From: Actinomycetota bacterium
GTDB lineage: Bacteria; Actinomycetota; Acidimicrobiia; IMCC26256; PALSA-610
DNA: 30,582 bases
Direction of reading: 5' to 3'
Assembly: GCA_030839005.1 (NCBI GenBank)
Contig: JAUZEM010000050.1
Location: forward strand, 1 to 30,582
A model generated the notes under the pieces. The model was not told the origin of the DNA. It worked only from the letters and a program-made list of their open reading frames with translations, and did no database searches. The first letter of the stretch is position 1. Every line of letters begins with the position of its first letter. Both the position numbers and the translations under genes were made by a program. Positions 723 through 9,133 of this stretch are shown here, piece after piece.

Positions 723-751
723 ACCGGTCCGAACCAGGGGTTCAAACCGGT
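723..751. promoter_or_regulatory. Imperfect 13-bp inverted repeat (operator or terminator)
   Basis: ACCGGTCCGAACC-agg-GGTTCAAACCGGT, 11/13 paired. It abuts the MmyB stop and covers the expected -35 zone of the 674 gene promoter. Confidence 0.45.
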
Positions 752-1572
752 CACGCGGGCGCGGATTCCATGCGCGCGAAGAGCGCGGAAGCGGTCGCGG
801 CGTCCGCCGGAAGGAAGGTCTCGAGCGACAGCTCGGCGAGTGTGATATCAAGCGCCGTACCGAAGGTTGCGATCATCGTCATTAGGGCCAGTTCGCCCGC
901 GTCCGTTCGCAGTCGCATAGGCATCGCGATCGGGCGCCCCGGCTCCGCTGCGGGCGGCACCGCGATGCCCATGTCCGCGGCGTAACCGACCAACTCGAGT
1001 TCGAGCTCACGCAGTTCGTCGTCACCAGTGACGGCGATCTGCCGCCTGAGATTGTCGATGATGTGCGCGCTCCACTGCGCGATGTTCGCGATCCGTGGCG
1101 CCACACCCTTCGGGTGCAAACTCACTCGCAACACGTTGCAGGTCGGCGCGAGCAGCTCGGGCGCGACGCCGTCGACGAGCACCGTCGCGGCGCGGTTCGC
1201 ACCGACGAGCTGCCACCGGCGATCGACGAGGATCGCCGGATACGGCTCGTGCGCCGCCAGGATGCGCTCAACGGCTTCGCGCACTGATTGCATCTCGGGC
1301 GCGTGGAAATCGGTGGCGTGGTACGTCGGCGCGTATCCACCGGCGATGAGCAACGGGTTGCGCTCGCGCAGCGGGACGTCGAGGTTCTCCGCGAGATGTA
1401 ACAACATCGCCCGGCTCGGCCGCGAGCGACCGGTCTCGACGAAGCTGAGGTGACGCGCCGAGATCCCGGCGGTCGACGCGAGCTCGAGCTGGCTCATCCG
1501 TCGGCGGATGCGCCAGTCGCGCAGTAACTGCCCCGCGGGTGCGCCGGCCGTGGCCTCGGTTGAATCGAGCAT
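751..1572 (-). CDS. XRE-family HTH regulator with MmyB-like (PAS-like) ligand-binding domain
   Basis: N-terminal HTH (LRDWRIRRRMSQLELASTAGISARHLSFVETGRSRPSR), then HEPYPAILVDRRWQLVGANRAA and DITLAELSLETFLPAD, typical of MmyB/MLTR. Start moved from 1581 to ATG 1572 because TACGGT (1585-1580) lies 7 nt upstream. Confidence 0.92.
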   Translation of the reverse strand: MLDSTEATAGAPAGQLLRDWRIRRRMSQLELASTAGISARHLSFVETGRSRPSRAMLLHLAENLDVPLRERNPLLIAGGYAPTYHATDFHAPEMQSVREAVERILAAHEPYPAILVDRRWQLVGANRAATVLVDGVAPELLAPTCNVLRVSLHPKGVAPRIANIAQWSAHIIDNLRRQIAVTGDDELRELELELVGYAADMGIAVPPAAEPGRPIAMPMRLRTDAGELALMTMIATFGTALDITLAELSLETFLPADAATASALFARMESAPA

Positions 1573-1607
1573 CGAGATCACCGTAGCGACGGGCGCGCGC
1601 CCGGGCC

Positions 1608-1624
1608 ATTACCTCCGAGGGAAT
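1608..1624. promoter_or_regulatory. Palindromic operator candidate for the MmyB-like regulator
   Basis: ATTACCTC-C-GAGGGAAT (7/8 paired); an AT-richer island in the divergent intergenic region 1573-1658. Confidence 0.55.
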
Positions 1625-1658
1625 CGACGGGCGTCGCGCCGCAGCGCACACTCGCCGC

Positions 1659-2312
1659 ATGACGACAACCATGCTCTCCCGCACGCACGTTTCCGCCGGA
1701 TGCCTGGCCGAATACGAAGCCTTCGCCGCTCTGATCGAGGGCTTGAACGACAAGGAATGGAATGCCTCGACTCGATGCGTGGGATGGCAGGCGCGCGACG
1801 CGGCCGGCCACGTGGTCGGACTCGCGGAGGACACCGCGGCCGGCGTTCCCGGGAGCCGTAACGCCGAGGAGGAGGCCGCGTCCGTGCGCCACGAGTCGCC
1901 CGCCGGTGCCGCGGCGCGCCTGCGTACCGCGACCGCGACTCTGCGCGCGTTGGTCGACGCGATCGACGACGACGCGTGGAACGGTCCGAGTGGGGTACCG
2001 GATCTCTCGCTCGGCGAAGGAGTGCTGACGCTCTGGTACGACACCTTCGTGCACGCCGACGACATCCGCGCCGCGATCGGCCGGACGTCCGAACGAGGTC
2101 CGGGTCTCGACGCGACGATCGCGTATCTCGCGCGACAGCTCACCGCGAAGAGTTGGGGTCCGGCGACGCTGGCGCTCGACGGGGCCGGCCGACACGACGT
2201 GAGGGGCGGCGGACCGGAGATCACCGGGGACGCCCTGCAGTTCGCGCTCGTGGCAACCGGCCGCGCGGATGCTTCGACTATCGGTCTCGATCCCGACGTC
2301 AATATCTACTGA
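1659..2312 (+). CDS. Maleylpyruvate isomerase family mycothiol-dependent enzyme (MDMPI/DinB superfamily)
   Basis: EWNASTRCVGWQARDAAGHVVG and WYDTFVHADDIRAAIG metal-binding motifs; C-terminal SCP2-like tail (ITGDALQFALVATGR). Confidence 0.88.
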   Translation: MTTTMLSRTHVSAGCLAEYEAFAALIEGLNDKEWNASTRCVGWQARDAAGHVVGLAEDTAAGVPGSRNAEEEAASVRHESPAGAAARLRTATATLRALVDAIDDDAWNGPSGVPDLSLGEGVLTLWYDTFVHADDIRAAIGRTSERGPGLDATIAYLARQLTAKSWGPATLALDGAGRHDVRGGGPEITGDALQFALVATGRADASTIGLDPDVNIY

Positions 2313-2337
2313 TCCCGGCGCGGCTACCGTGCGCGCC

Positions 2338-3357
2338 GTGGCACGGGACGACGACGCGATCGAGCTCGAGATCGACGGGCACCCGGTACGCGTCACGAGC
2401 CCCGGCAAGGTGCTGTTCCCGGAGCGGGGCGAGACCAAGCTGGACCTCGTGCGCTACTACCTCGCCGTCGCCGAGCCGATCATGCGCACGATGGGCGGCC
2501 GACCCGTGCTCATGCAGCGGTATCCCCACGGCGCGACCGGCTCGTCGTTCTTTCAAAAGCGCGTGCCCGACAATGCGCCGGAGTGGCTCGAGACCACGAT
2601 CGTCAGTACCCCGAACGGCACGACGTCGCGCGCGCTCGTCGCCGTCGACCTCGCACACATCGCGTGGGCGGTGAACCTGGGATGTCTCGGCTTCCACGTG
2701 TGGCCCGCGCACGCGGCAGATCCCGACCACGCCGACGAGCTGCGCATCGACCTCGATCCGCAGCCCGGCACCGGGTTCGACGAAGCACGGGCCGCGGCCG
2801 CCGACGTGCGGGCGTTGTTCGACGAGATCGGGATCGTCGCACACCCGAAGACCACGGGGAACCGCGGCATTCACGTGTACGTGCGACTCCTCCCGCGTTG
2901 GGATCCCATCCAGGTGCGGGCCGCCGCGGTCGCGGTGGCGCGTGAGCTCGCCCGGCGGTATCCCGCGCTGATCACCGACGCGTGGTGGAAGGAAGAGCGG
3001 GGCGAGCGCATCTTCGTCGACTTCAACCAGAACGCGCCCCACAAGACGGTGTTCGGCGCGTGGTGCGTGCGGGCGCGCGAAGGCGCACAAGTGTCGACGC
3101 CTTTCGACTGGAGCGAGCTCGACACGATCGACCCCGACGCGCAGACGATCGCGACGCTGCCGGCGCGCGTCGAGGCGCTCGGCGACCCGTGGGCCGACAT
3201 GCCGTCGGAGCCGCAGTCGCTCGAACCGCTGCTGGCGATGTCGGAGCGCGACCTCGCCGGCGGGCTCCAGGACGCGCCATGGCCGCCCGTGTATCCGAAG
3301 ATGCCGGGCGAGCCGCCGCGGGTCGCGCCCAGTCGCGCCCGCAAGAAGGACATGTAG
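2338..3357 (+). CDS. Stand-alone AEP primase-polymerase (Prim-PolC/Rv3730c-like, LigD polymerase-domain family)
   Basis: VTSPGKVLFP, QRYPHG, FFQKR, DELRIDLDP (DxD), PKTTGNRGIHVY, WWKEERGERIFVDFNQN, and C-terminal YPKMPGEPPRVAPSR as in mycobacterial Prim-PolC. Start set at GTG 2338 (TACCGT 7 nt upstream). No ligase or phosphoesterase domain. Confidence 0.92.
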   Translation: MARDDDAIELEIDGHPVRVTSPGKVLFPERGETKLDLVRYYLAVAEPIMRTMGGRPVLMQRYPHGATGSSFFQKRVPDNAPEWLETTIVSTPNGTTSRALVAVDLAHIAWAVNLGCLGFHVWPAHAADPDHADELRIDLDPQPGTGFDEARAAAADVRALFDEIGIVAHPKTTGNRGIHVYVRLLPRWDPIQVRAAAVAVARELARRYPALITDAWWKEERGERIFVDFNQNAPHKTVFGAWCVRAREGAQVSTPFDWSELDTIDPDAQTIATLPARVEALGDPWADMPSEPQSLEPLLAMSERDLAGGLQDAPWPPVYPKMPGEPPRVAPSRARKKDM

Positions 3358-3378
3358 GCGCCCGCGTAGGCTGACGGG

Positions 3379-4041
3379 GTGACGTTCCAGGGCTGGCCGG
3401 ACGCCGCGCTCGAGTTCTACGTCGGCTTGGAGGCCGACAACTCGAAGGCGTACTGGCACGCAAACCGCGCGACGTACGACGAGTGCGTGAAGGCGCCGTT
3501 TCTCGAGCTGTCGGACGTGATCGGCCGGGAGTTCGGAAGGCTGCACGTGTTCCGGCCCAACCGCGACACGCGTTTCTCCAAGGACAAGACGCCTTACAAG
3601 ACGGCGGCCGCCGCGGTGACCGAGGGTGAGGGTGGTGCCGCGTACTACGTGCAGGTCTCGGCCGAGGGCCTGTACGTGGGTAGCGGGTACTACATGCTGG
3701 CGAGCGATCAGTTGCAACGGTTCCGCGACGCGGTCGTCGACACGCGAACCGGGCCGAAGCTCGCAAGCGCAGTCGAGGCATTGCGCAAGAACAGGTACGA
3801 GGTCGCGGCGCGCGAGGCACTGAAACGCGCGCCTCGAGGCATCGACCCCGACCATCCGCGCGCCGAGTTGCTGCGCATGAAGGGCGTGCACGTGGGTCGC
3901 GTGTTCGGCGCACCGCGCTGGCTGCACACCAAGGGTGCCGCGGAACGGATTGTCGCGGCGTGGCGCGACGCGGCCCCGGTGAACCGGTGGCTCGACCGCC
4001 ACGTCGGTCCGAGCACCCTGGCCCCGCCCGAACCCGACTGA
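3379..4041 (+). CDS. DUF2461 family protein
   Basis: FQGWPDAALEFYVGLEADNSKAYW, FRPNRDTRFSKDKTPYKT and YVQVSAEGLYVGSGYY are characteristic of DUF2461/TIGR02453. Confidence 0.9.
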   Translation: MTFQGWPDAALEFYVGLEADNSKAYWHANRATYDECVKAPFLELSDVIGREFGRLHVFRPNRDTRFSKDKTPYKTAAAAVTEGEGGAAYYVQVSAEGLYVGSGYYMLASDQLQRFRDAVVDTRTGPKLASAVEALRKNRYEVAAREALKRAPRGIDPDHPRAELLRMKGVHVGRVFGAPRWLHTKGAAERIVAAWRDAAPVNRWLDRHVGPSTLAPPEPD

Positions 4042-4078
4042 TCACTCTCCCGGCACGCCGCCCGTAGGCTGGCCCGCA

Positions 4079-5905
4079 ATGTGCGGCATCGTCGGGTTTG
4101 CCCGCTCGGATCCAGAGCGGTTGGAGCGGATGCTGCGATCGATCGTGCACCGAGGGCCCGACGGGCAGGGCACCGACATCGGGACGTACTTCTCGATCGG
4201 GATGCGCCGGCTCGCCATCATCGACGTCGCGACCGGTGACCAGCCGCTCTACAGCGACGACCGCAACCTCGCGCTCGTCTTCAACGGCGAGATCTACAAC
4301 CACGCCGAGCTGCGCCGCGAGCTCGAGCAGAAGGGCCGACGGTTCGTCACCCACCACTCCGACAGCGAGGTCATCCTGCGCGGCTTCGAGGAGTGGGGCC
4401 GCAACGTCGTCGACCACCTGACCGGAATGTTCGCGTTCGCGATCTCGGATCACGAACGCGGCGAGCTCTTCCTTGCGCGCGACCGTCTCGGCATCAAGCC
4501 GCTGTACTACGTCGACGGTCCGACCGGCTTCGCCTTCGCGTCGGAGCTCAAGGCGCTCTTCCAGGATGCGGCCGTGCCGCGCCGTCCCGCGGTCGACGCC
4601 CTGCGGCGCTTCCTCTTGTTCCGTGTTCACGACGACGGTGAGGAGACCTTCTTCGATGGCGTGAAGCGATTGCTACCGGCGCACACGATGCTGGTTCGGC
4701 CCGACGGGATCGTGAAGGTCGAGCGCTACTGGAATCCGTCGGTGAATCCGGAGTTCGCGTCGAGCCGAAGCGACGACGACTACGCGCAAGAGTTCGCGAG
4801 CCGGTTCGACGACGTCGTGAAACGGCATCTCATCTCGGACGTGCCTGTCGGCGTCCCGCTTTCGGGCGGGCTCGACTCCAGCGGGGTGGTGTCAACCATG
4901 GCCCGGCTCCGGTCGGGTGGCACGAACCTGCACACCGCGGGCCTCTACACCTTCTCCGCGCTGTATCCGGGTCAGAGCATCGACGAGAGCGAGTACATCG
5001 GCGAGGTCGAGCGCGCGGTCGGCAGCATCCCGCACTACGTGTACCCGAAGCTCGACGAGTTCTGGAGCGAGATCATGGAATGGATCTGGTATCAGGAGGA
5101 GCCGACGATCGCGTCGGCGCCCTACGCGTACTACTCGGTGTACCGGCTCGCGAGCGCGCACGTGAAGGTCATGGTGAGCGGCAACGGCGGCGACGAGCTG
5201 CTGGCCGGCTACATCCCCTACTTCCGCACCTACCTCAGCTCCGCGATGGCGCAGCACCACTATGTCGCGGCCGCCCGCGAGGTCGTGAAGGGCCGCGACC
5301 TCTACAAGAAGTATGCGGGCGAGCTGATCCGCTCGAAGCTGCCCGGACGCGCCACGAATCCCGTGAACGCTCGCGAGTTGCTGGAGCCCGGGTCGTCGGT
5401 CGCGACCGCGCACTTTCGCGCGCACGAGAACCTCAACGAGCGCCTCGCGAGCGACGTGCTGCAGTACTCGACCCCCGACCTCCTTCGCTACGAGGACAAG
5501 AACTCGATGGCATTCTCGATCGAGGCACGGGTTCCCTTCCTCGACCACGAGCTCGTCGAGTTCATCTTCTCGCTGCCCATCGACCAGAAGATCAAGGGCG
5601 GCTGGAACCGCGCGGTGTACCGCAACGCGATGAAGGGACGCATGCCGGAGAAGAACCGGCTGCGCCGCTCGAAGATCGGTTTCACCAACCCCGACATCAC
5701 CTGGATGAAGGAGAAAGCGTCCGAGATCCGCGCGATCTTCTCCTCGTCCGACCTCGCGTCGCGCGACCTCTACAACCCCGCGCAGCTCGTGACCGCGTGG
5801 GACGAGTACCTCGCGGGCCGTCCGGGTGACGGGCTCATCTTCTGGCGCGTGCTGGTCACGGAGCTGTGGATGCGCCGGTACATGGATCAGGCGGTGGCGG
5901 TGTGA
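4079..5905 (+). CDS. asnB: Asparagine synthase (glutamine-hydrolysing) family amidotransferase
   Basis: N-terminal MCGIVG (Cys2), HRGPDG, RRLAIID, FNGEIYN, RDRLGIKPLYY, LSGGLDSS PP-loop, SGNGGDELLAGY, EARVPFLDH. Confidence 0.95.
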   Translation: MCGIVGFARSDPERLERMLRSIVHRGPDGQGTDIGTYFSIGMRRLAIIDVATGDQPLYSDDRNLALVFNGEIYNHAELRRELEQKGRRFVTHHSDSEVILRGFEEWGRNVVDHLTGMFAFAISDHERGELFLARDRLGIKPLYYVDGPTGFAFASELKALFQDAAVPRRPAVDALRRFLLFRVHDDGEETFFDGVKRLLPAHTMLVRPDGIVKVERYWNPSVNPEFASSRSDDDYAQEFASRFDDVVKRHLISDVPVGVPLSGGLDSSGVVSTMARLRSGGTNLHTAGLYTFSALYPGQSIDESEYIGEVERAVGSIPHYVYPKLDEFWSEIMEWIWYQEEPTIASAPYAYYSVYRLASAHVKVMVSGNGGDELLAGYIPYFRTYLSSAMAQHHYVAAAREVVKGRDLYKKYAGELIRSKLPGRATNPVNARELLEPGSSVATAHFRAHENLNERLASDVLQYSTPDLLRYEDKNSMAFSIEARVPFLDHELVEFIFSLPIDQKIKGGWNRAVYRNAMKGRMPEKNRLRRSKIGFTNPDITWMKEKASEIRAIFSSSDLASRDLYNPAQLVTAWDEYLAGRPGDGLIFWRVLVTELWMRRYMDQAVAV

Positions 5906-6597
5906 CGATCCGACGCGCGCAGGGGGTCGACTACGAGCGGATCGCGGTGCAGACACACCTGATCCACATCAAGGAACCGCTCGAGCCCGTGTTCGACGAG
6001 TACGTGAAACCGGTGCTGCAACCGGGGGACTGGCTCGCGGTGTCCGAGAAGTTCGTGACGATCTCGCAGGGACGGGTGATCCATCACTCGGTCGTCCGGC
6101 CCGGCGTGCTCGCCAAGCTGCTCGTCAAGGGCGTCACCAAGCATCCCGACGACGTCGGCTACTCCGACCCTCGGAAGATGCAGGTCGCGATCATGCAGGC
6201 GGGGTGGTGGCGCATGTTGGTCGCGATGATCATCGGCGCGACCAGCCGGCTCGTGCTGCGCCGCCGCGGCGACTTCTACCGCATCGCCGGTCACCGCATC
6301 TCCGAGATCGACGGCTTCAGTCCCGCGACGGTGAAGCCCTTCGACGAGTTCGCGATGCTCGGACCGGCGAACCCCGACGCCGCGGCCGAGGAGATCTCGG
6401 CGCATATGGGCGGCGTACCGGTCGTCATCGTCGACGCCAACAACATCAACGTCGAGGTCCTCGGCACGAGCCCGGGTTTCCCCGCCGACGCGTCGGCCGT
6501 CCGCGAGATATTGCTCGACAACCCGCTCGGCCAGAACGACGAGCTCACGCCGATCATCGTCGTAAGACGCCTCAGCCAGGTACGACGCCTCGGCTAG
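5902..6597 (+). CDS. Coenzyme F420-0:gamma-glutamyl ligase-like (CofE/DUF129 fold) protein
   Basis: GDWLAVSEKFVTISQGR, SEIDGF, VVIVDANN and DNPLGQNDELTPI match the non-canonical CofE-like subfamily. GTG 5902 overlaps the asnB TGA (GTGA). Ends in tandem TAG-TGA. Confidence 0.75.
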   Translation: MTIRRAQGVDYERIAVQTHLIHIKEPLEPVFDEYVKPVLQPGDWLAVSEKFVTISQGRVIHHSVVRPGVLAKLLVKGVTKHPDDVGYSDPRKMQVAIMQAGWWRMLVAMIIGATSRLVLRRRGDFYRIAGHRISEIDGFSPATVKPFDEFAMLGPANPDAAAEEISAHMGGVPVVIVDANNINVEVLGTSPGFPADASAVREILLDNPLGQNDELTPIIVVRRLSQVRRLG

Positions 6598-6638: not shown

Positions 6639-6733
6639 GGCCCCCGATGCGTTCCTGATACCGCGTTGACGGGTGTCCTGGTGTGATGAGAACCGGGCGG
6701 CCGACCGGCCGCGCGCGCATCGCAGGAGACACC

Positions 6734-9133
6734 TTGCTGACCGAGCCGACACCGACGACCGAGACGGCTCCCGCCGCCCGGGACGGCACCGCCTCGTGCC
6801 CGATGCCCGTGCCGCTCGTCCCCGGCGTGGAGCTGCCCTGCGACAGCATGCGCTACCGCCTCAAGAACACGTTGCTCGGTCCGCCGCTGCACACCGAGCA
6901 ACTCGAGCACGAGCGGCTCGGCAAGCCCACCGCGTTGGCGGTCTTCGCCTCCGACAACCTGTCGTCGTCCGCGTACGCGACCGAGGAGATGCTGCGGGTC
7001 CTCATCCCCGTGATCGGGTTGAGCGCGTTCGCGCTCGTCGTACCGATCACGACTGCGCTCTTGGTCGTCCTCTTCTTCTTGATCCTGTCGTATCGACAGA
7101 CGATCAAGGCGTACCCCACAGCCGGTGGCGCGTACATGGTCACGCGCGACAACTTCGGGTTGCTCCCGGCGCAGGTCGCCGGTGTCGCGCTGCTCACCGA
7201 CTATGTCTTGACCGTTTCCGTCTCGGTTGCGGCCGGGACGGCCGCACTGGCATCGGCCTTCCCGGTGTTCGATCCCTGGATCCTGTGGATCTCCATTGCG
7301 TTCGTGATCGTGATCGCGTACGGCAACCTGCGCGGCGTACGCGAGTCGGGCAAGGTCTTCGCGGTACCCACGTACTTCTTCATCATCAACATGGGCATCC
7401 TTCTCGCCGTCGGTGTGTTCAAGTCGATCCACGGCGGCTTGGTCCGCGCCAACTATCAGCACGCGACGGGGCTGATGCATTTCGGCAGCAAGAGCGGTGG
7501 CCTCCTCGCGGGCGCGAGCCTGGCGCTTGTATTGCACTCGTTCGCGTCGGGCGGCGCGGCGGTGACGGGCGTCGAGGCGATCTCGAACGGCGTGCCGGCG
7601 TTCAAGAAACCAGAATGGAAGAACGCGCGCACGACCCTCGTGATCATGGGCTCGCTGCTCGGCGTCATGTTCCTCGGGCTGTCGATCATGGACGCCAAGA
7701 TGAAGGTCGCACCGTTCACCAACGGCACACCGACCGTCATCTCGCAGATCGGCAAGCTCGCCTACGGCGGCGGCGCGCTCGGCAACGTCCTTTACTACTG
7801 CCTGCAAGCCGGCACGATGCTCATCCTGGTGCTCGCGGCCAATACCAGCTTTGCCGACTTTCCCCGCCTCGCGTCCTTCCACGCCGGTGACAACTTCATG
7901 CCGCGCCAGCTCACGAAGCGCGGCCATCGGCTCGTTTTCTCGAACGGGATCATCTTCCTCGCGGTCGCCGCGATCGTCCTGCTGCTGGCCACCGGCGCCA
8001 AGGTCGACCGTCTCATCCCTCTGTACGCGATCGGCGTGTTCACGTCGTTCACGCTGTCGCAGGCCGGCATGGCCAGGCACCACATCCGCGAGAAGGAGCA
8101 GGGCTGGCGCTGGGGATTGTTCGTCAACGGCTTCGGCGCGTTCCTGTCCCTTGTCGTCGACATCGTGATCGCCATCTTCAAGTTCACGCACGGCGCGTGG
8201 GTCATCGTCGTGTTCGTACCGATCATGGTTGTCTTCCTCGTGCGTCTGGCCAGGCAGTATGAGAAGGAGGACCACGCACTGGCGAGCGACGTGCCCAAGG
8301 CGGTCGCCGCACCCGTGCGCAAGCGACTCGTGGTCATGGTGTTCGTCGACCGCCTGGATCTCGCCGTGGCCCGCGCAATGCAGTTCGGTCGCGCGCTACG
8401 ACCCGACGAGCTGCGCGCCGTGCACTTCGTGATCGACAACCACCACGCCGACGAGCTCGCCGCGGAATGGCGGGAACACGGACTGACCAATCTCGGCCTC
8501 GAGCTCATCGATTGCCCGGATCGACGTCTCACGCGCTCCGCGGTCGAGACCGTGGCACACGAGCTGAGCTCAGGCGATTCCGAGGTGTGCGTGCTGTTGC
8601 CCGAGCGCCAGTTCAACGGGGCGTGGCACCGCATCCTCCACGACCAGACCGCCGAGTCGCTCTCGCGCGAGATCTCGCGGCTGCCGCACGCGAATGTGAC
8701 GATCGTGCCGTTCCACTTCGACGACCGCGGATCGATCTCCGTTGCCGACGCCGGCACGACGCCGAACGTGAACGGCAACGGCCGGGTCGACAACTACGGT
8801 CGGGGGAACGGCAAGACCAAGTCCAGCAGCAAGGTCCTCGCGGATACCGTGTCGATCGTCCGGCCCGCCGGCACCACGCCGATCGGCGAGGTGCGATGCC
8901 GTCAGAACGTGAAGGTGCACGGGCGGGTCCAGGCCGTGCGCGTCGAGCCGCTCGGGGGCAGCCCGAGCCTCGAGTACACGCTGGTCGACGAGACCGGCGG
9001 GGTATCGGTCGTGTTCTTCGGTCGACGCCAGATCGAGGGCATCGCGATCGGTGCCGCCCTCACCGTCGAGGGCATGGCGATCGACCACCACGGCCGGCTG
9101 GCGATCGTCAACCCGATTTACGAGCTTCGCTGA
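6734..9133 (+). CDS. KimA-like APC/KUP-fold K+ transporter with cytoplasmic domain and C-terminal OB-fold fusion
   Basis: ERLGKPTALAVFASDNLSSSAYATEE, TGVEAISNGVPAFK, ANTSFADFPRL and LIPLYAIGVFTSFTLSQAGM; about 12 hydrophobic helices; last ~85 aa form an OB fold (VKVHGRV...LVDETGGVSVVFFGRRQIEGI...VNPIYEL). TTG start at 6734, 5 nt after AGGAG. Confidence 0.88.
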   Translation: MLTEPTPTTETAPAARDGTASCPMPVPLVPGVELPCDSMRYRLKNTLLGPPLHTEQLEHERLGKPTALAVFASDNLSSSAYATEEMLRVLIPVIGLSAFALVVPITTALLVVLFFLILSYRQTIKAYPTAGGAYMVTRDNFGLLPAQVAGVALLTDYVLTVSVSVAAGTAALASAFPVFDPWILWISIAFVIVIAYGNLRGVRESGKVFAVPTYFFIINMGILLAVGVFKSIHGGLVRANYQHATGLMHFGSKSGGLLAGASLALVLHSFASGGAAVTGVEAISNGVPAFKKPEWKNARTTLVIMGSLLGVMFLGLSIMDAKMKVAPFTNGTPTVISQIGKLAYGGGALGNVLYYCLQAGTMLILVLAANTSFADFPRLASFHAGDNFMPRQLTKRGHRLVFSNGIIFLAVAAIVLLLATGAKVDRLIPLYAIGVFTSFTLSQAGMARHHIREKEQGWRWGLFVNGFGAFLSLVVDIVIAIFKFTHGAWVIVVFVPIMVVFLVRLARQYEKEDHALASDVPKAVAAPVRKRLVVMVFVDRLDLAVARAMQFGRALRPDELRAVHFVIDNHHADELAAEWREHGLTNLGLELIDCPDRRLTRSAVETVAHELSSGDSEVCVLLPERQFNGAWHRILHDQTAESLSREISRLPHANVTIVPFHFDDRGSISVADAGTTPNVNGNGRVDNYGRGNGKTKSSSKVLADTVSIVRPAGTTPIGEVRCRQNVKVHGRVQAVRVEPLGGSPSLEYTLVDETGGVSVVFFGRRQIEGIAIGAALTVEGMAIDHHGRLAIVNPIYELR

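What the first reader, a model, noticed from the sequence alone, without database searches (positions are those of the whole stretch)
4079..6597. Translationally coupled AsnB amidotransferase plus non-canonical CofE-like ligase: a candidate ligate-then-amidate pathway
Seen: asnB and a 231-aa CofE-fold gene overlap by GTGA and share one apparently leaderless promoter (TAGGCT 4065-4070). The ligase keeps SEK, IDG and acidic VDA motifs, but lacks the FbiB nitroreductase domain, and no cofC/cofD/fbi gene is nearby. Established: CofE-fold enzymes form amide bonds with glutamate in an NTP-dependent reaction (F420; folate in Chlamydia). Many AsnB paralogs amidate cell-wall carboxylates (LtsA/AsnB on mDAP; AsnH on D-Asp bridges added by an ATP-grasp ligase). 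Inference: the CofE-like protein adds Asp or Glu to an acceptor (peptidoglycan bridge, envelope polymer or cofactor) and AsnB amidates it, i.e. a CofE-fold replacement for the Aslfm/YxbA step.
Basis: inference. Interest (0 to 1): 0.68.

Follow-up and report, generated by a model that had tools for sequence, protein, structure and literature searches.

The report
AsnB amidotransferase paired with CofE-like ligase
Two overlapping genes encode a glutamine-using amidating enzyme and a distant cousin of the cofactor-F420 glutamate ligase; many bacterial phyla keep these two together or fuse them, they serve neither asparagine nor F420 synthesis, and they most probably decorate cell-wall (peptidoglycan) building blocks in a step nobody has yet tested.

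Summary
asnB (4079-5905) and a 231-aa CofE-fold gene (5902-6597) overlap by GTGA. A -10-like TAGGCT lies 8 nt before the asnB ATG and is conserved in about 24 relatives.

The pairing is strongly conserved: AsnB lies directly upstream in about 64 of 72 loci, from Actinomycetota to Patescibacteria, and at least 335 protein clusters carry the two as one fusion.

It is not an F420 or folate enzyme. The genome has canonical cofC, cofD-cofE, fbiC and folC on other contigs, and Patescibacteria that carry the gene have no cofD. The AsnB partner lacks two residues that E. coli asparagine synthetase needs to activate aspartate.

Peptidoglycan is the best-supported target. The CofE-like domain is fused to MurF and to Amidase_3. 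It sits next to FemAB, PBP1a, MurJ and a racemase-like gene in different lineages. It is anticorrelated with MurT (3 of 23 carriers against 179 of 378 non-carriers).

The chemistry is untested, and all carriers found are uncultured. The scan has noted this pair or fusion several times before on other DNA, with similar verdicts.

The parts
4065..4070 (+). -10-like hexamer TAGGCT, 8 nt upstream of the asnB ATG; candidate promoter of a leaderless transcript
   Evidence: Sequence read. A TANNCT element lies at the same 7-8 nt distance in about 24 relatives although the rest of the spacer diverges. No RNA data were available.
4079..5905 (+). AsnB-family glutamine-dependent amidotransferase, 608 aa. 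Cys2 is at 4082-4084 and the PP-loop SGGLDS (residues 262-267) at 4862-4879. Asn369 (5183-5185) stands where E. coli AS-B has Glu348.
   Evidence: Pfam and NCBIfam assignments. Alignment to 1CT9 and 7YLZ. Motif table. It is 37-43% identical to the AsnB domains of fusions, against 30-31% to the genome's own two paralogues.
5902..5905 (+). GTGA overlap: the start of the CofE-like gene lies within the stop of asnB (translational coupling)
   Evidence: The same 4-nt overlap is seen in the close relatives L001-L003, L009, L010 and L014.
5902..6597 (+). Divergent single-domain CofE-fold ligase, 231 aa. Motif positions: SEK 6043-6051; family-specific helical insert with KMQVAIMQ, residues 63-120, 6088-6261; IDG 6307-6315; VDANN 6430-6444; DNPLGQ 6517-6534.
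   Evidence: The profile search found 1166 relatives at E<=1e-3.

Best explanation
The two genes encode a functionally coupled enzyme pair that tailors a carboxylate-bearing precursor. That precursor is most probably the peptide stem of a peptidoglycan precursor (UDP-MurNAc-peptide or lipid II).

Shown here:
- The pair is a conserved unit that is often fused.
- The ligase has the CofE fold but is not the F420 or folate enzyme.
- The AsnB keeps its glutaminase Cys2 and its PP-loop, but lacks residues that E. coli AS-B needs for aspartate.

Inferred mechanism:
- By analogy with CofE, the CofE-like enzyme uses an NTP to turn a stem-peptide carboxylate into an acyl-phosphate and joins an amine to it. 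The most likely site is the alpha-carboxylate of D-isoglutamate, the site otherwise amidated by MurT/GatD. The amine could be an amino acid or ammonia.
- The AsnB partner adenylates a carboxylate on the same molecule and amidates it with ammonia taken from glutamine. That carboxylate could belong to the newly added residue or to the diamino acid.
- The genes are probably made from one leaderless transcript with coupled translation.
For: Coupling:
- AsnB is directly upstream in about 64 of 72 loci, including Patescibacteria.
- At least 10 of 63 long representative proteins, and at least 335 90%-identity clusters, are AsnB::CofE-like fusions.
- G035 and G231 give single HSPs of 824 and 876 aa against a fusion protein.
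- The window's AsnB is closer to the AsnB domains of fusions (37-43%) than to its own paralogues (30-31%).

Not F420, folate or asparagine:
- The specific CofE and FolC2 models fail.
- Canonical cofC, cofD-cofE, fbiC and folC lie elsewhere in the genome.
- Five Patescibacteria carriers have no cofD but do have Mur ligases.
- AS-B Glu348 is Asn or Gln, and the Arg of TTIRAS is Ala or Ser, in every CofE-linked AsnB examined.

Peptidoglycan link:
- One MurF::CofE-like fusion (TIGR01143 scores 321.6 against a cut-off of 288.6) and six Amidase_3::CofE-like clusters.
- The order PBP1a, LysM-CHAP, def, FemAB-like, then CofE-like in genomes that read TGA as Gly.
- MurJ next to the gene in 5 genomes, with a PknB-like kinase and a PASTA protein beside it in two.
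- A racemase-like class-III aminotransferase directly downstream in 5 genomes.

Anticorrelation with MurT_C:
- MurT_C is found in 0 of 21 genomes of the window's genus, against 13 of 20 genomes of other genera of the order.
- G209 is the only MurT-negative genome of 5 in its genus, and the only carrier there.
- MurT_C is found in 0 of 10 further carriers.
- In the phylum sample it is found in 3 of 23 carriers against 179 of 378 non-carriers, Fisher p = 0.001.
Against: - No member has been assayed, and every carrier found is an uncultured MAG.
- The neighbourhoods of the fusions are mostly unrelated to the cell wall: groESL, ABC transporters, gltX, CN-hydrolase.
- In the window itself the neighbours (LigD polymerase, DUF2461, a K+ transporter) say nothing about function.
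- The MurF fusion is a single cluster. The MurJ adjacency is convergent, not operonic.
- The MurT statistic is not corrected for phylogeny, and G370 carries both a fusion and MurT.
- The equivalence of the acidic motif residues with CofE's metal ligands rests on a weak profile alignment (E = 0.003).
- Some divergent fusions have a degenerate AsnB half, with Cys2 and the PP-loop lost. The AsnB chemistry is therefore dispensable in part of the family.
Confidence: 0.5

Rival explanations
1. Double-amidation variant, still on peptidoglycan. The CofE-like enzyme is a non-homologous analogue of MurT and makes D-isoglutamine from ammonia. That ammonia is free, or supplied by the AsnB glutaminase. The AsnB synthetase half amidates the diamino acid as LtsA/AsnB does. 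No amino acid is added.
For: Carriers lack MurT. MurT and CofE both work through an acyl-phosphate (established knowledge; CofE mechanism in PMC10861534). Actinobacteria commonly amidate both sites (established knowledge).
Against: A FemAB-like gene and a racemase-like gene next to stand-alone members suggest amino-acid chemistry. Stand-alone members have no glutaminase partner. The AsnB keeps its own complete synthetase site.
Confidence: 0.15
2. A small-molecule pathway. The ligase makes a dipeptide-like or gamma/beta-linked compound, for example an osmolyte of the N-acetylglutaminylglutamine amide type or a cofactor tail, and AsnB amidates it.
For: The NAGGN pathway uses the same ligate-then-amidate logic, and TIGR03104 is the third-best NCBIfam hit for the AsnB (341 bits). 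The fused genes mostly stand alone, as a self-contained pathway would. Peptidases (M20, AstE/AspA, CN-hydrolase) recur nearby or fused.
Against: TIGR03104 scores below its cut-off of 570. This reading does not explain the fusions to MurF and Amidase_3, the FemAB/PBP/MurJ neighbours or the anticorrelation with MurT. Roughly 1-Mb Patescibacteria genomes keep the gene although they make few metabolites of their own.
Confidence: 0.15
3. Modification of another envelope polymer or of a protein, for example amidated uronic acids, a teichoic-type polymer or C-terminal glutamylation of a protein.
For: AsnB paralogues amidate polysaccharide carboxylates; TIGR03108, the PEP-CTERM-associated amidotransferase, is the second-best hit. 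The FemAB-like neighbour is nearest to the PEP-CTERM FemAB model. Single fusions to PlsY and to a CDP-alcohol phosphatidyltransferase point to the membrane.
Against: Both hits lie far below their cut-offs. No glycosyltransferase or polymer-export cluster recurs beside the gene. MurF and Amidase_3 are specific to peptidoglycan.
Confidence: 0.12
4. The ordinary reading: AsnB makes free asparagine, and the second gene is a spare F420 or folate glutamyl ligase.
For: TIGR01536 and PF01996 both score above their cut-offs, and public annotation uses these names.
Against: The specific CofE and FolC2 models fail. The canonical F420 genes and folC are present elsewhere. Carriers exist without cofD. AS-B Glu348 and the Arg of TTIRAS are replaced. 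This reading gives no reason for the two to be fused in hundreds of clusters.
Confidence: 0.03

Closest known systems
CofE / N-terminal domain of FbiB (F420-0:L-glutamate ligase; PF01996; PDB 2G9I, 2PHN, 7ULD)
   Same: Same fold: these are the only significant structural matches. The motifs are collinear: GD..SEK..QGR, IDG, VDxN and a C-terminal acidic/Gly motif. It is presumably also an NTP-dependent ligase that works through an acyl-phosphate.
   Different: - Only 16-20% identity, and TIGR01916 scores 18 against a cut-off of 180.
- A roughly 58-residue helical insert (KMQVAIMQ) replaces the region between the first two motifs.
- It is not linked to cof/fbi genes and coexists with a canonical cofD-cofE pair.
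- It occurs in genomes without cofD.
MurT/GatD (lipid II D-isoglutamate amidation)
   Same: Both are two-component systems: a ligase that activates a carboxylate plus a glutamine amidotransferase. They are nearly mutually exclusive with this family in Actinomycetota. Function reference: PMC3266927.
   Different: There is no homology. MurT has the Mur-ligase fold and GatD is a triad glutaminase. Here the parts are a CofE fold and an Ntn-type AsnB that has its own adenylating site. The equivalence is inferred, not shown.
Peptidoglycan-amidating AsnB paralogues (LtsA / AsnB on meso-DAP; AsnH on the D-Asp bridge added by Aslfm)
   Same: Same AsnB family, with intact Cys2 and PP-loop and probably a non-aspartate carboxylate substrate. 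The Aslfm-then-AsnH pathway is a ligate-then-amidate precedent (PMC8554201, PMC5485061 and PMC3885529, listed).
   Different: Those enzymes have no CofE-like partner. Aslfm is an ATP-grasp enzyme that activates the incoming D-Asp. No curated model exists with which to test orthology to LtsA or AsnH.
NAGGN pathway (Ngg ligase plus AsnO amidotransferase, TIGR03104)
   Same: A ligase followed by an AsnB-type amidation of the product. AsnO is among the best NCBIfam hits.
   Different: The score is below the cut-off (341 against 570). The ligase there is a GNAT/ATP-grasp protein, not a CofE fold.

Membership tests
CofE / FbiB F420-0:gamma-glutamyl ligase | Score above the curated equivalog model TIGR01916 | tested here: not met
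   18.2 bits against a cut-off of 180.65. The genome's true CofE on C239 scores 188 bits on PF01996.
CofE / FbiB F420-0:gamma-glutamyl ligase | CofE fold / Pfam PF01996 | tested here: met
   PF01996 scores 31.8 bits (cut-off 25), with partial coverage. Foldseek matches 2G9I, 2PHN and 7ULD with probability 1.0 and TM 0.54-0.61.
CofE / FbiB F420-0:gamma-glutamyl ligase | Occurs with the F420 pathway (cofC, cofD, fbiC), usually beside cofD | tested here: not met
   cofD-cofE lie on C239, cofC on C583 and fbiC on C479; none is on the window contig. None of 5 Patescibacteria carriers has cofD above the cut-off.
CofE / FbiB F420-0:gamma-glutamyl ligase | GTP- and Mn-dependent glutamylation of F420-0 | not testable with these tools
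   This needs an enzyme assay.
Chlamydial FolC2-type folate gamma-glutamate ligase (TIGR04132) | Score above the model cut-off, and absence of a canonical FolC | tested here: not met
   16.9 bits against 350. Canonical folC is present at 316 bits against a cut-off of 162.65.
Asparagine synthetase B (glutamine-hydrolysing, makes free Asn) | Ntn glutaminase Cys2, PP-loop SGGLDS and the generic model TIGR01536 | tested here: met
   MCGIVG, SGGLDS at residues 262-267, and TIGR01536 at 426.5 bits against 267.1.
Asparagine synthetase B (glutamine-hydrolysing, makes free Asn) | Residues of E. coli AS-B tied to aspartate activation: Glu348 in SGEGSDE and the Arg of TTIRAS. Their roles are recalled from the literature; their positions were read from the alignment. 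| tested here: not met
   SGNGGDE (Asn369) and EEPTIASAP (Ala345) in the alignment to 1CT9. All CofE-linked AsnBs have Asn or Gln at this position. The AS-B equivalog NF006949 scores 262 against 499.
NAGGN amidotransferase AsnO (TIGR03104) | Score above the cut-off | tested here: not met
   341.2 bits against 570.1.
NAGGN amidotransferase AsnO (TIGR03104) | Partner genes: Ngg ligase and M42 hydrolase | not tested
   Neither was searched for specifically. No such gene appears among the Pfam-scanned neighbours.
MurT/GatD | Mur-ligase-fold MurT with the MurT_C domain (PF08353) | tested here: not met
   No MurT_C was found in the genome or in the 20 other genomes of its genus. The pair is at most an analogue, not a member.
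LtsA / AsnB meso-DAP amidotransferase, AsnH | Orthology to the characterised enzymes and amidation of the stem peptide | not testable with these tools
This needs a phylogeny with the characterised proteins and muropeptide analysis.

The most novel reading that the evidence does not exclude
The CofE-like family is the long-missing tRNA-independent ligase that substitutes the alpha-carboxylate of D-isoglutamate in the peptidoglycan stem. Such substitutions are the glycine, glycine-amide or alanine-amide decorations known from chemotaxonomy, for example Intrasporangium (PMC3035309). With its AsnB partner capping the new carboxylate as an amide, the system functionally replaces MurT/GatD in lineages from Actinomycetota to ultra-small Patescibacteria.
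Probability: 0.25. Interest if true: 0.8.

Novelty: new variant of a known kind. Interest (0 to 1): 0.62.

Why it matters
Hundreds of genomes label this gene pair or fusion simply as 'asparagine synthase' and 'F420-0:gamma-glutamyl ligase'. Both names are almost certainly wrong for function.

If the pair tailors peptidoglycan precursors, several things would follow:
- A third, structurally unrelated class of stem-peptide ligase would join the Mur ligases and the ATP-grasp enzymes.
- There would be a candidate gene for alpha-carboxyl substitutions of D-glutamate, which have been known chemically for decades.
- It would explain how many MurT/GatD-less Actinomycetota and minimal Patescibacteria neutralise or decorate their cell wall.

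The hypothesis can be tested directly with standard lipid II or UDP-MurNAc-peptide assays.

Tried and rejected
- **PDB sequence search:** a profile search of PDB sequences with the family alignment found nothing, even at E <= 1. Only the fold search linked the family to CofE.
- **Profile against one canonical CofE:** this failed. A 28-sequence canonical profile gave only E = 0.003, so residue equivalences are tentative.
- **Neighbour clustering across 72 loci:** no third conserved gene turned up. LigD-pol/DUF2461 upstream and the K+ transporter downstream are lineage synteny only.
- **An apparent 881-aa fused ORF in L038:** this is an alternative-frame artefact of high G+C. Real fusions were accepted only where tblastn gave single long HSPs.
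- **Fusion neighbourhoods:** six look-ups showed no recurrent cell-wall genes.
- **Promoter and terminator:** the sigma-70 consensus scan found no promoter. The hairpin after the stop codon folds no better than shuffled sequence (z = +1.3).
- **Literature:** searches for the pair, for PF01996 with peptidoglycan, and for the D-Glu alpha-carboxyl ligase found no description of it.
- **RNA evidence:** the tool that finds RNA runs was not available, so co-transcription and the leaderless start could not be checked.
- **Cultured carriers:** none was found among the named cluster members.
Full report
**1.

The window is a 67-70% G+C contig of an uncultured Acidimicrobiia-type actinobacterium. Its closest loci are MAGs labelled Acidimicrobiia or Actinomycetota.

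A 608-codon ORF runs from 4079 to 5905 and begins MCGIVG. A GTG at 5902-5904 shares its last two bases with the asnB TGA (5903-5905) and opens a 231-codon frame ending at 6597. Homologues begin at the same position, which supports this start.

The first protein has GATase_7 and Asn_synthase domains and passes the generic asparagine-synthase model.

The second protein only just passes PF01996: 31.8 bits against a cut-off of 25, over residues 34-180. It fails the specific CofE model (18 against 181) and the chlamydial folate-ligase model (17 against 350). An AlphaFold2 model (pLDDT 82.6) matches only the Archaeoglobus CofE structures 2G9I, 2PHN and 7ULD, with probability 1.0 and TM 0.54-0.61. 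The next hit has E > 3.

**2. The promoter reading gains support**

TAGGCT sits at 4065-4070, 8 nt before the ATG. That ATG is fixed, because Cys2 must become the N-terminal nucleophile.

In about 24 relatives a TAGGCT, TAACCT or TAGTCT hexamer stands 7-8 nt before the start codon, while the rest of the spacer has diverged. This is the footprint expected of a -10 element driving a leaderless mRNA.

It remains an inference. The consensus scan found no sigma-70 promoter, there is no convincing terminator after 6597, and RNA runs could not be searched.

**3. The pair is a conserved unit**

A scan of one genome per species found 72 loci encoding close relatives of the small protein, at 43-96% identity. 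In about 64 of them a homologue of the window's AsnB (58-97% identity) lies immediately upstream. These include four Patescibacteria loci: L039, L041, L061 and L064. No other neighbour is conserved across clades.

A profile search of 1.84 billion representative proteins found 1166 relatives, of which 218 score below 1e-30. Among the 63 long ones, at least ten are AsnB::CofE-like fusions. A search seeded with one fusion found at least 335 clusters with this architecture. They come from Dormibacterota, Actinomycetota, Chloroflexota, Acidobacteriota and Bacillota MAGs, and all are named 'asparagine synthase'.

Two assembled genomes of the window's own class (G035, G231) carry the fusion as one uninterrupted reading frame.

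The window's AsnB is 37-43% identical to the AsnB halves of these fusions, but only 30-31% identical to the two other AsnB paralogues of its own genome.

**4. It is not F420, folate or asparagine synthesis**

- **F420 and folate genes:** the genome has a complete canonical F420 set elsewhere: cofC on C583, cofD-cofE adjacent on C239, and fbiC on C479. It also has a canonical folC.
- **The window's genus:** all 20 other genomes of the genus have both the canonical CofE and the CofE-like gene.
- **Patescibacteria carriers:** five carriers of 0.7-1.2 Mb have no cofD, yet all have Mur ligases.
- **The AsnB active site:** in the alignment to E. coli AS-B (1CT9), the Glu348 of SGEGSDE is Asn369 here and the Arg of TTIRAS is Ala345.
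- **Other CofE-linked AsnBs:** every one examined has Asn (unfused clade) or Gln (fusions) at the Glu348 position.

The roles of these two residues in aspartate activation are recalled from the AS-B literature, not tested here. Cys2, the PP-loop and the C-terminal Lys motif are intact. The enzyme therefore looks active, but on another carboxylate.

**5. What it acts on**

Several independent lines point to peptidoglycan precursors.

- **(a) Fusions to cell-wall enzymes.** The CofE-like domain is fused to a bona fide MurF (TIGR01143, 321.6 bits against a cut-off of 288.6). In six representative clusters it is fused to an Amidase_3 N-acetylmuramoyl-L-alanine amidase that shows no obvious signal peptide.
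- **(b) Neighbours in small genomes that read TGA as glycine.** In three related genomes the gene follows a FemAB-family gene by 23 nt, with a class A PBP and a LysM-CHAP hydrolase just upstream.
- **(c) MurJ neighbours.** A MurJ homologue lies next to the gene in five genomes of different families. In two of them a PknB-like kinase and a PASTA protein lie beside it.
- **(d) A racemase-like neighbour.** In five small actinobacterial genomes the next gene downstream has a class-III aminotransferase fold. Its best solved relatives are amino-acid racemases.
- **(e) Anticorrelation with MurT_C, the marker of the MurT/GatD lipid II amidation system:**

| Sample | MurT_C in carriers | MurT_C in non-carriers |
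|---|---|---|
| The window's genus, against other genera of the order | 0 of 21 | 13 of 20 |
| Genus g33 | 0 of 1 (G209, the only carrier) | 4 of 4 |
| AsnB-linked carriers in the class sample | 0 of 6 | not tabulated |
| Further carriers, from other clades and Patescibacteria | 0 of 10 | not tabulated |
| 401 Actinomycetota genomes (Fisher p = 0.001, odds ratio 0.17) | 3 of 23 | 179 of 378 |

Within-family contrasts recur in families f14, f66 and f74.

Several caveats apply:
- The Fisher test ignores relatedness.
- G370 has both a fusion and MurT.
- The MurF fusion is one cluster.
- The MurJ adjacency is convergent, not operonic.
- The neighbourhoods of six fusions show nothing related to the cell wall.

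**6. Mechanism (inferred)**

CofE activates the carboxylate of its large substrate with GTP as an acyl-phosphate, then lets the amine of a free amino acid attack it (PMC10861534). MurT uses the same chemistry on the alpha-carboxylate of D-isoglutamate, with ammonia from GatD (PMC3266927).

The near-exclusivity with MurT also holds for stand-alone members. This suggests that the CofE-like enzyme itself works on that same carboxylate. It would add either an amino acid or ammonia. Glycine on this carboxylate is known chemically, for example in Intrasporangium (PMC3035309).

The AsnB partner would then amidate a carboxylate of the same precursor, either on the new residue or on the diamino acid.

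AsnB is a frequent partner but not an obligate one:
- Four Patescibacteria genomes have the ligase but no AsnB anywhere.
- A Saccharibacteria genome has them unlinked.
- 18 of 20 loci from other actinobacterial classes are stand-alone.
- Some divergent fusions have lost Cys2 and the PP-loop.

The ligase is therefore the core of the system, and 'ligate then amidate' is only one possible order. It is not supported by anything found here. It is also less consistent with CofE chemistry, because Aslfm activates the incoming D-Asp.

**7. Comparison, novelty and earlier notes**

The closest known family by fold is CofE/FbiB-N. Membership in the functional family is rejected on the specific model, on gene context and on distribution. 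The closest systems by logic are MurT/GatD, Aslfm+AsnH and Ngg+AsnO.

Literature searches found no description of the pair. No cultured carrier was seen.

Earlier notes of this scan on other genomes describe the same pair or fusion and reached similar verdicts: conserved, not F420, probably cell wall. I re-derived those points here.

- the anticorrelation with MurT;
- the MurJ and racemase-like neighbours;
- the replaced AS-B residues;
- the degenerate AsnB halves of some fusions;
- the conserved -10 element.

I class it as a new variant of a known kind. The enzyme folds are known, but the combination is untested and the substrate is probably new.

Noticed in passing
L053:6935-7672 (also L037, L062): The CofE-like gene of these roughly 1-Mb Patescibacteria genomes has five in-frame TGA codons, all at conserved glycine columns, so the genomes read TGA as Gly (code 25). 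One of them is labelled Candidatus Peribacteria. Read with code 25, the locus order is PBP1a, LysM-CHAP, def, FemAB-like, CofE-like.
   Followed up: partly
window 6683-9133 (+): An 816-aa amino-acid-permease-superfamily protein with a C-terminal OB fold lies directly downstream. It is syntenic only in close relatives and is not part of the pair.
   Followed up: no
G000:C239:1770-3325 (locus L073): The genome's canonical cofD and cofE are adjacent. This CofE is a single-domain protein of about 235 aa, without the nitroreductase domain typical of actinobacterial FbiB. The same 235-aa form is seen across the order.
   Followed up: partly
proteins P0357, P0180, P0205, P0207, P0227, P0232, P0240, P0266: In several divergent AsnB::CofE-like fusions the AsnB half has lost the catalytic Cys2 (to Ser or Gly), or the PP-loop, or both, while the CofE-like half is kept. 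In part of the family the AsnB half looks like a pseudo-enzyme or scaffold.
   Followed up: partly
L128:4521-6625 and L132:4113-6043: The stop codon of the principal sigma factor gene (SigA/HrdB-like) overlaps the start of a stand-alone CofE-like gene by 4 nt in two genomes of one actinobacterial genus.
   Followed up: no
L130:3220-5257, L133, L135, L136, L137: In five small actinobacterial genomes of about 50-54% G+C, the CofE-like gene is followed after 13 nt or so by a class-III aminotransferase-fold gene. Its best solved relatives are Ala/Ser racemase, a broad-specificity racemase and isoleucine 2-epimerase.
   Followed up: partly
L113:6674-8290 and L114:6423-7907: TPR-repeat::CofE-like fusions lie next to a PknB-like Ser/Thr kinase, a PASTA-domain protein and MurJ. 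Unlike the AsnB-linked carriers, these two genomes do have MurT.
   Followed up: partly
window 751-4041: Upstream genes: an MmyB-like HTH regulator (-), a mycothiol-dependent DinB/MDMPI-like protein, a LigD primase-polymerase domain protein and DUF2461 (+). LigD-pol and DUF2461 are syntenic with asnB in close relatives only.
   Followed up: no
L117:11760-14696: A UvrD/PcrA helicase gene two genes downstream of a Dormibacteria fusion carries an intein (Pfam Intein_splicing).
   Followed up: no
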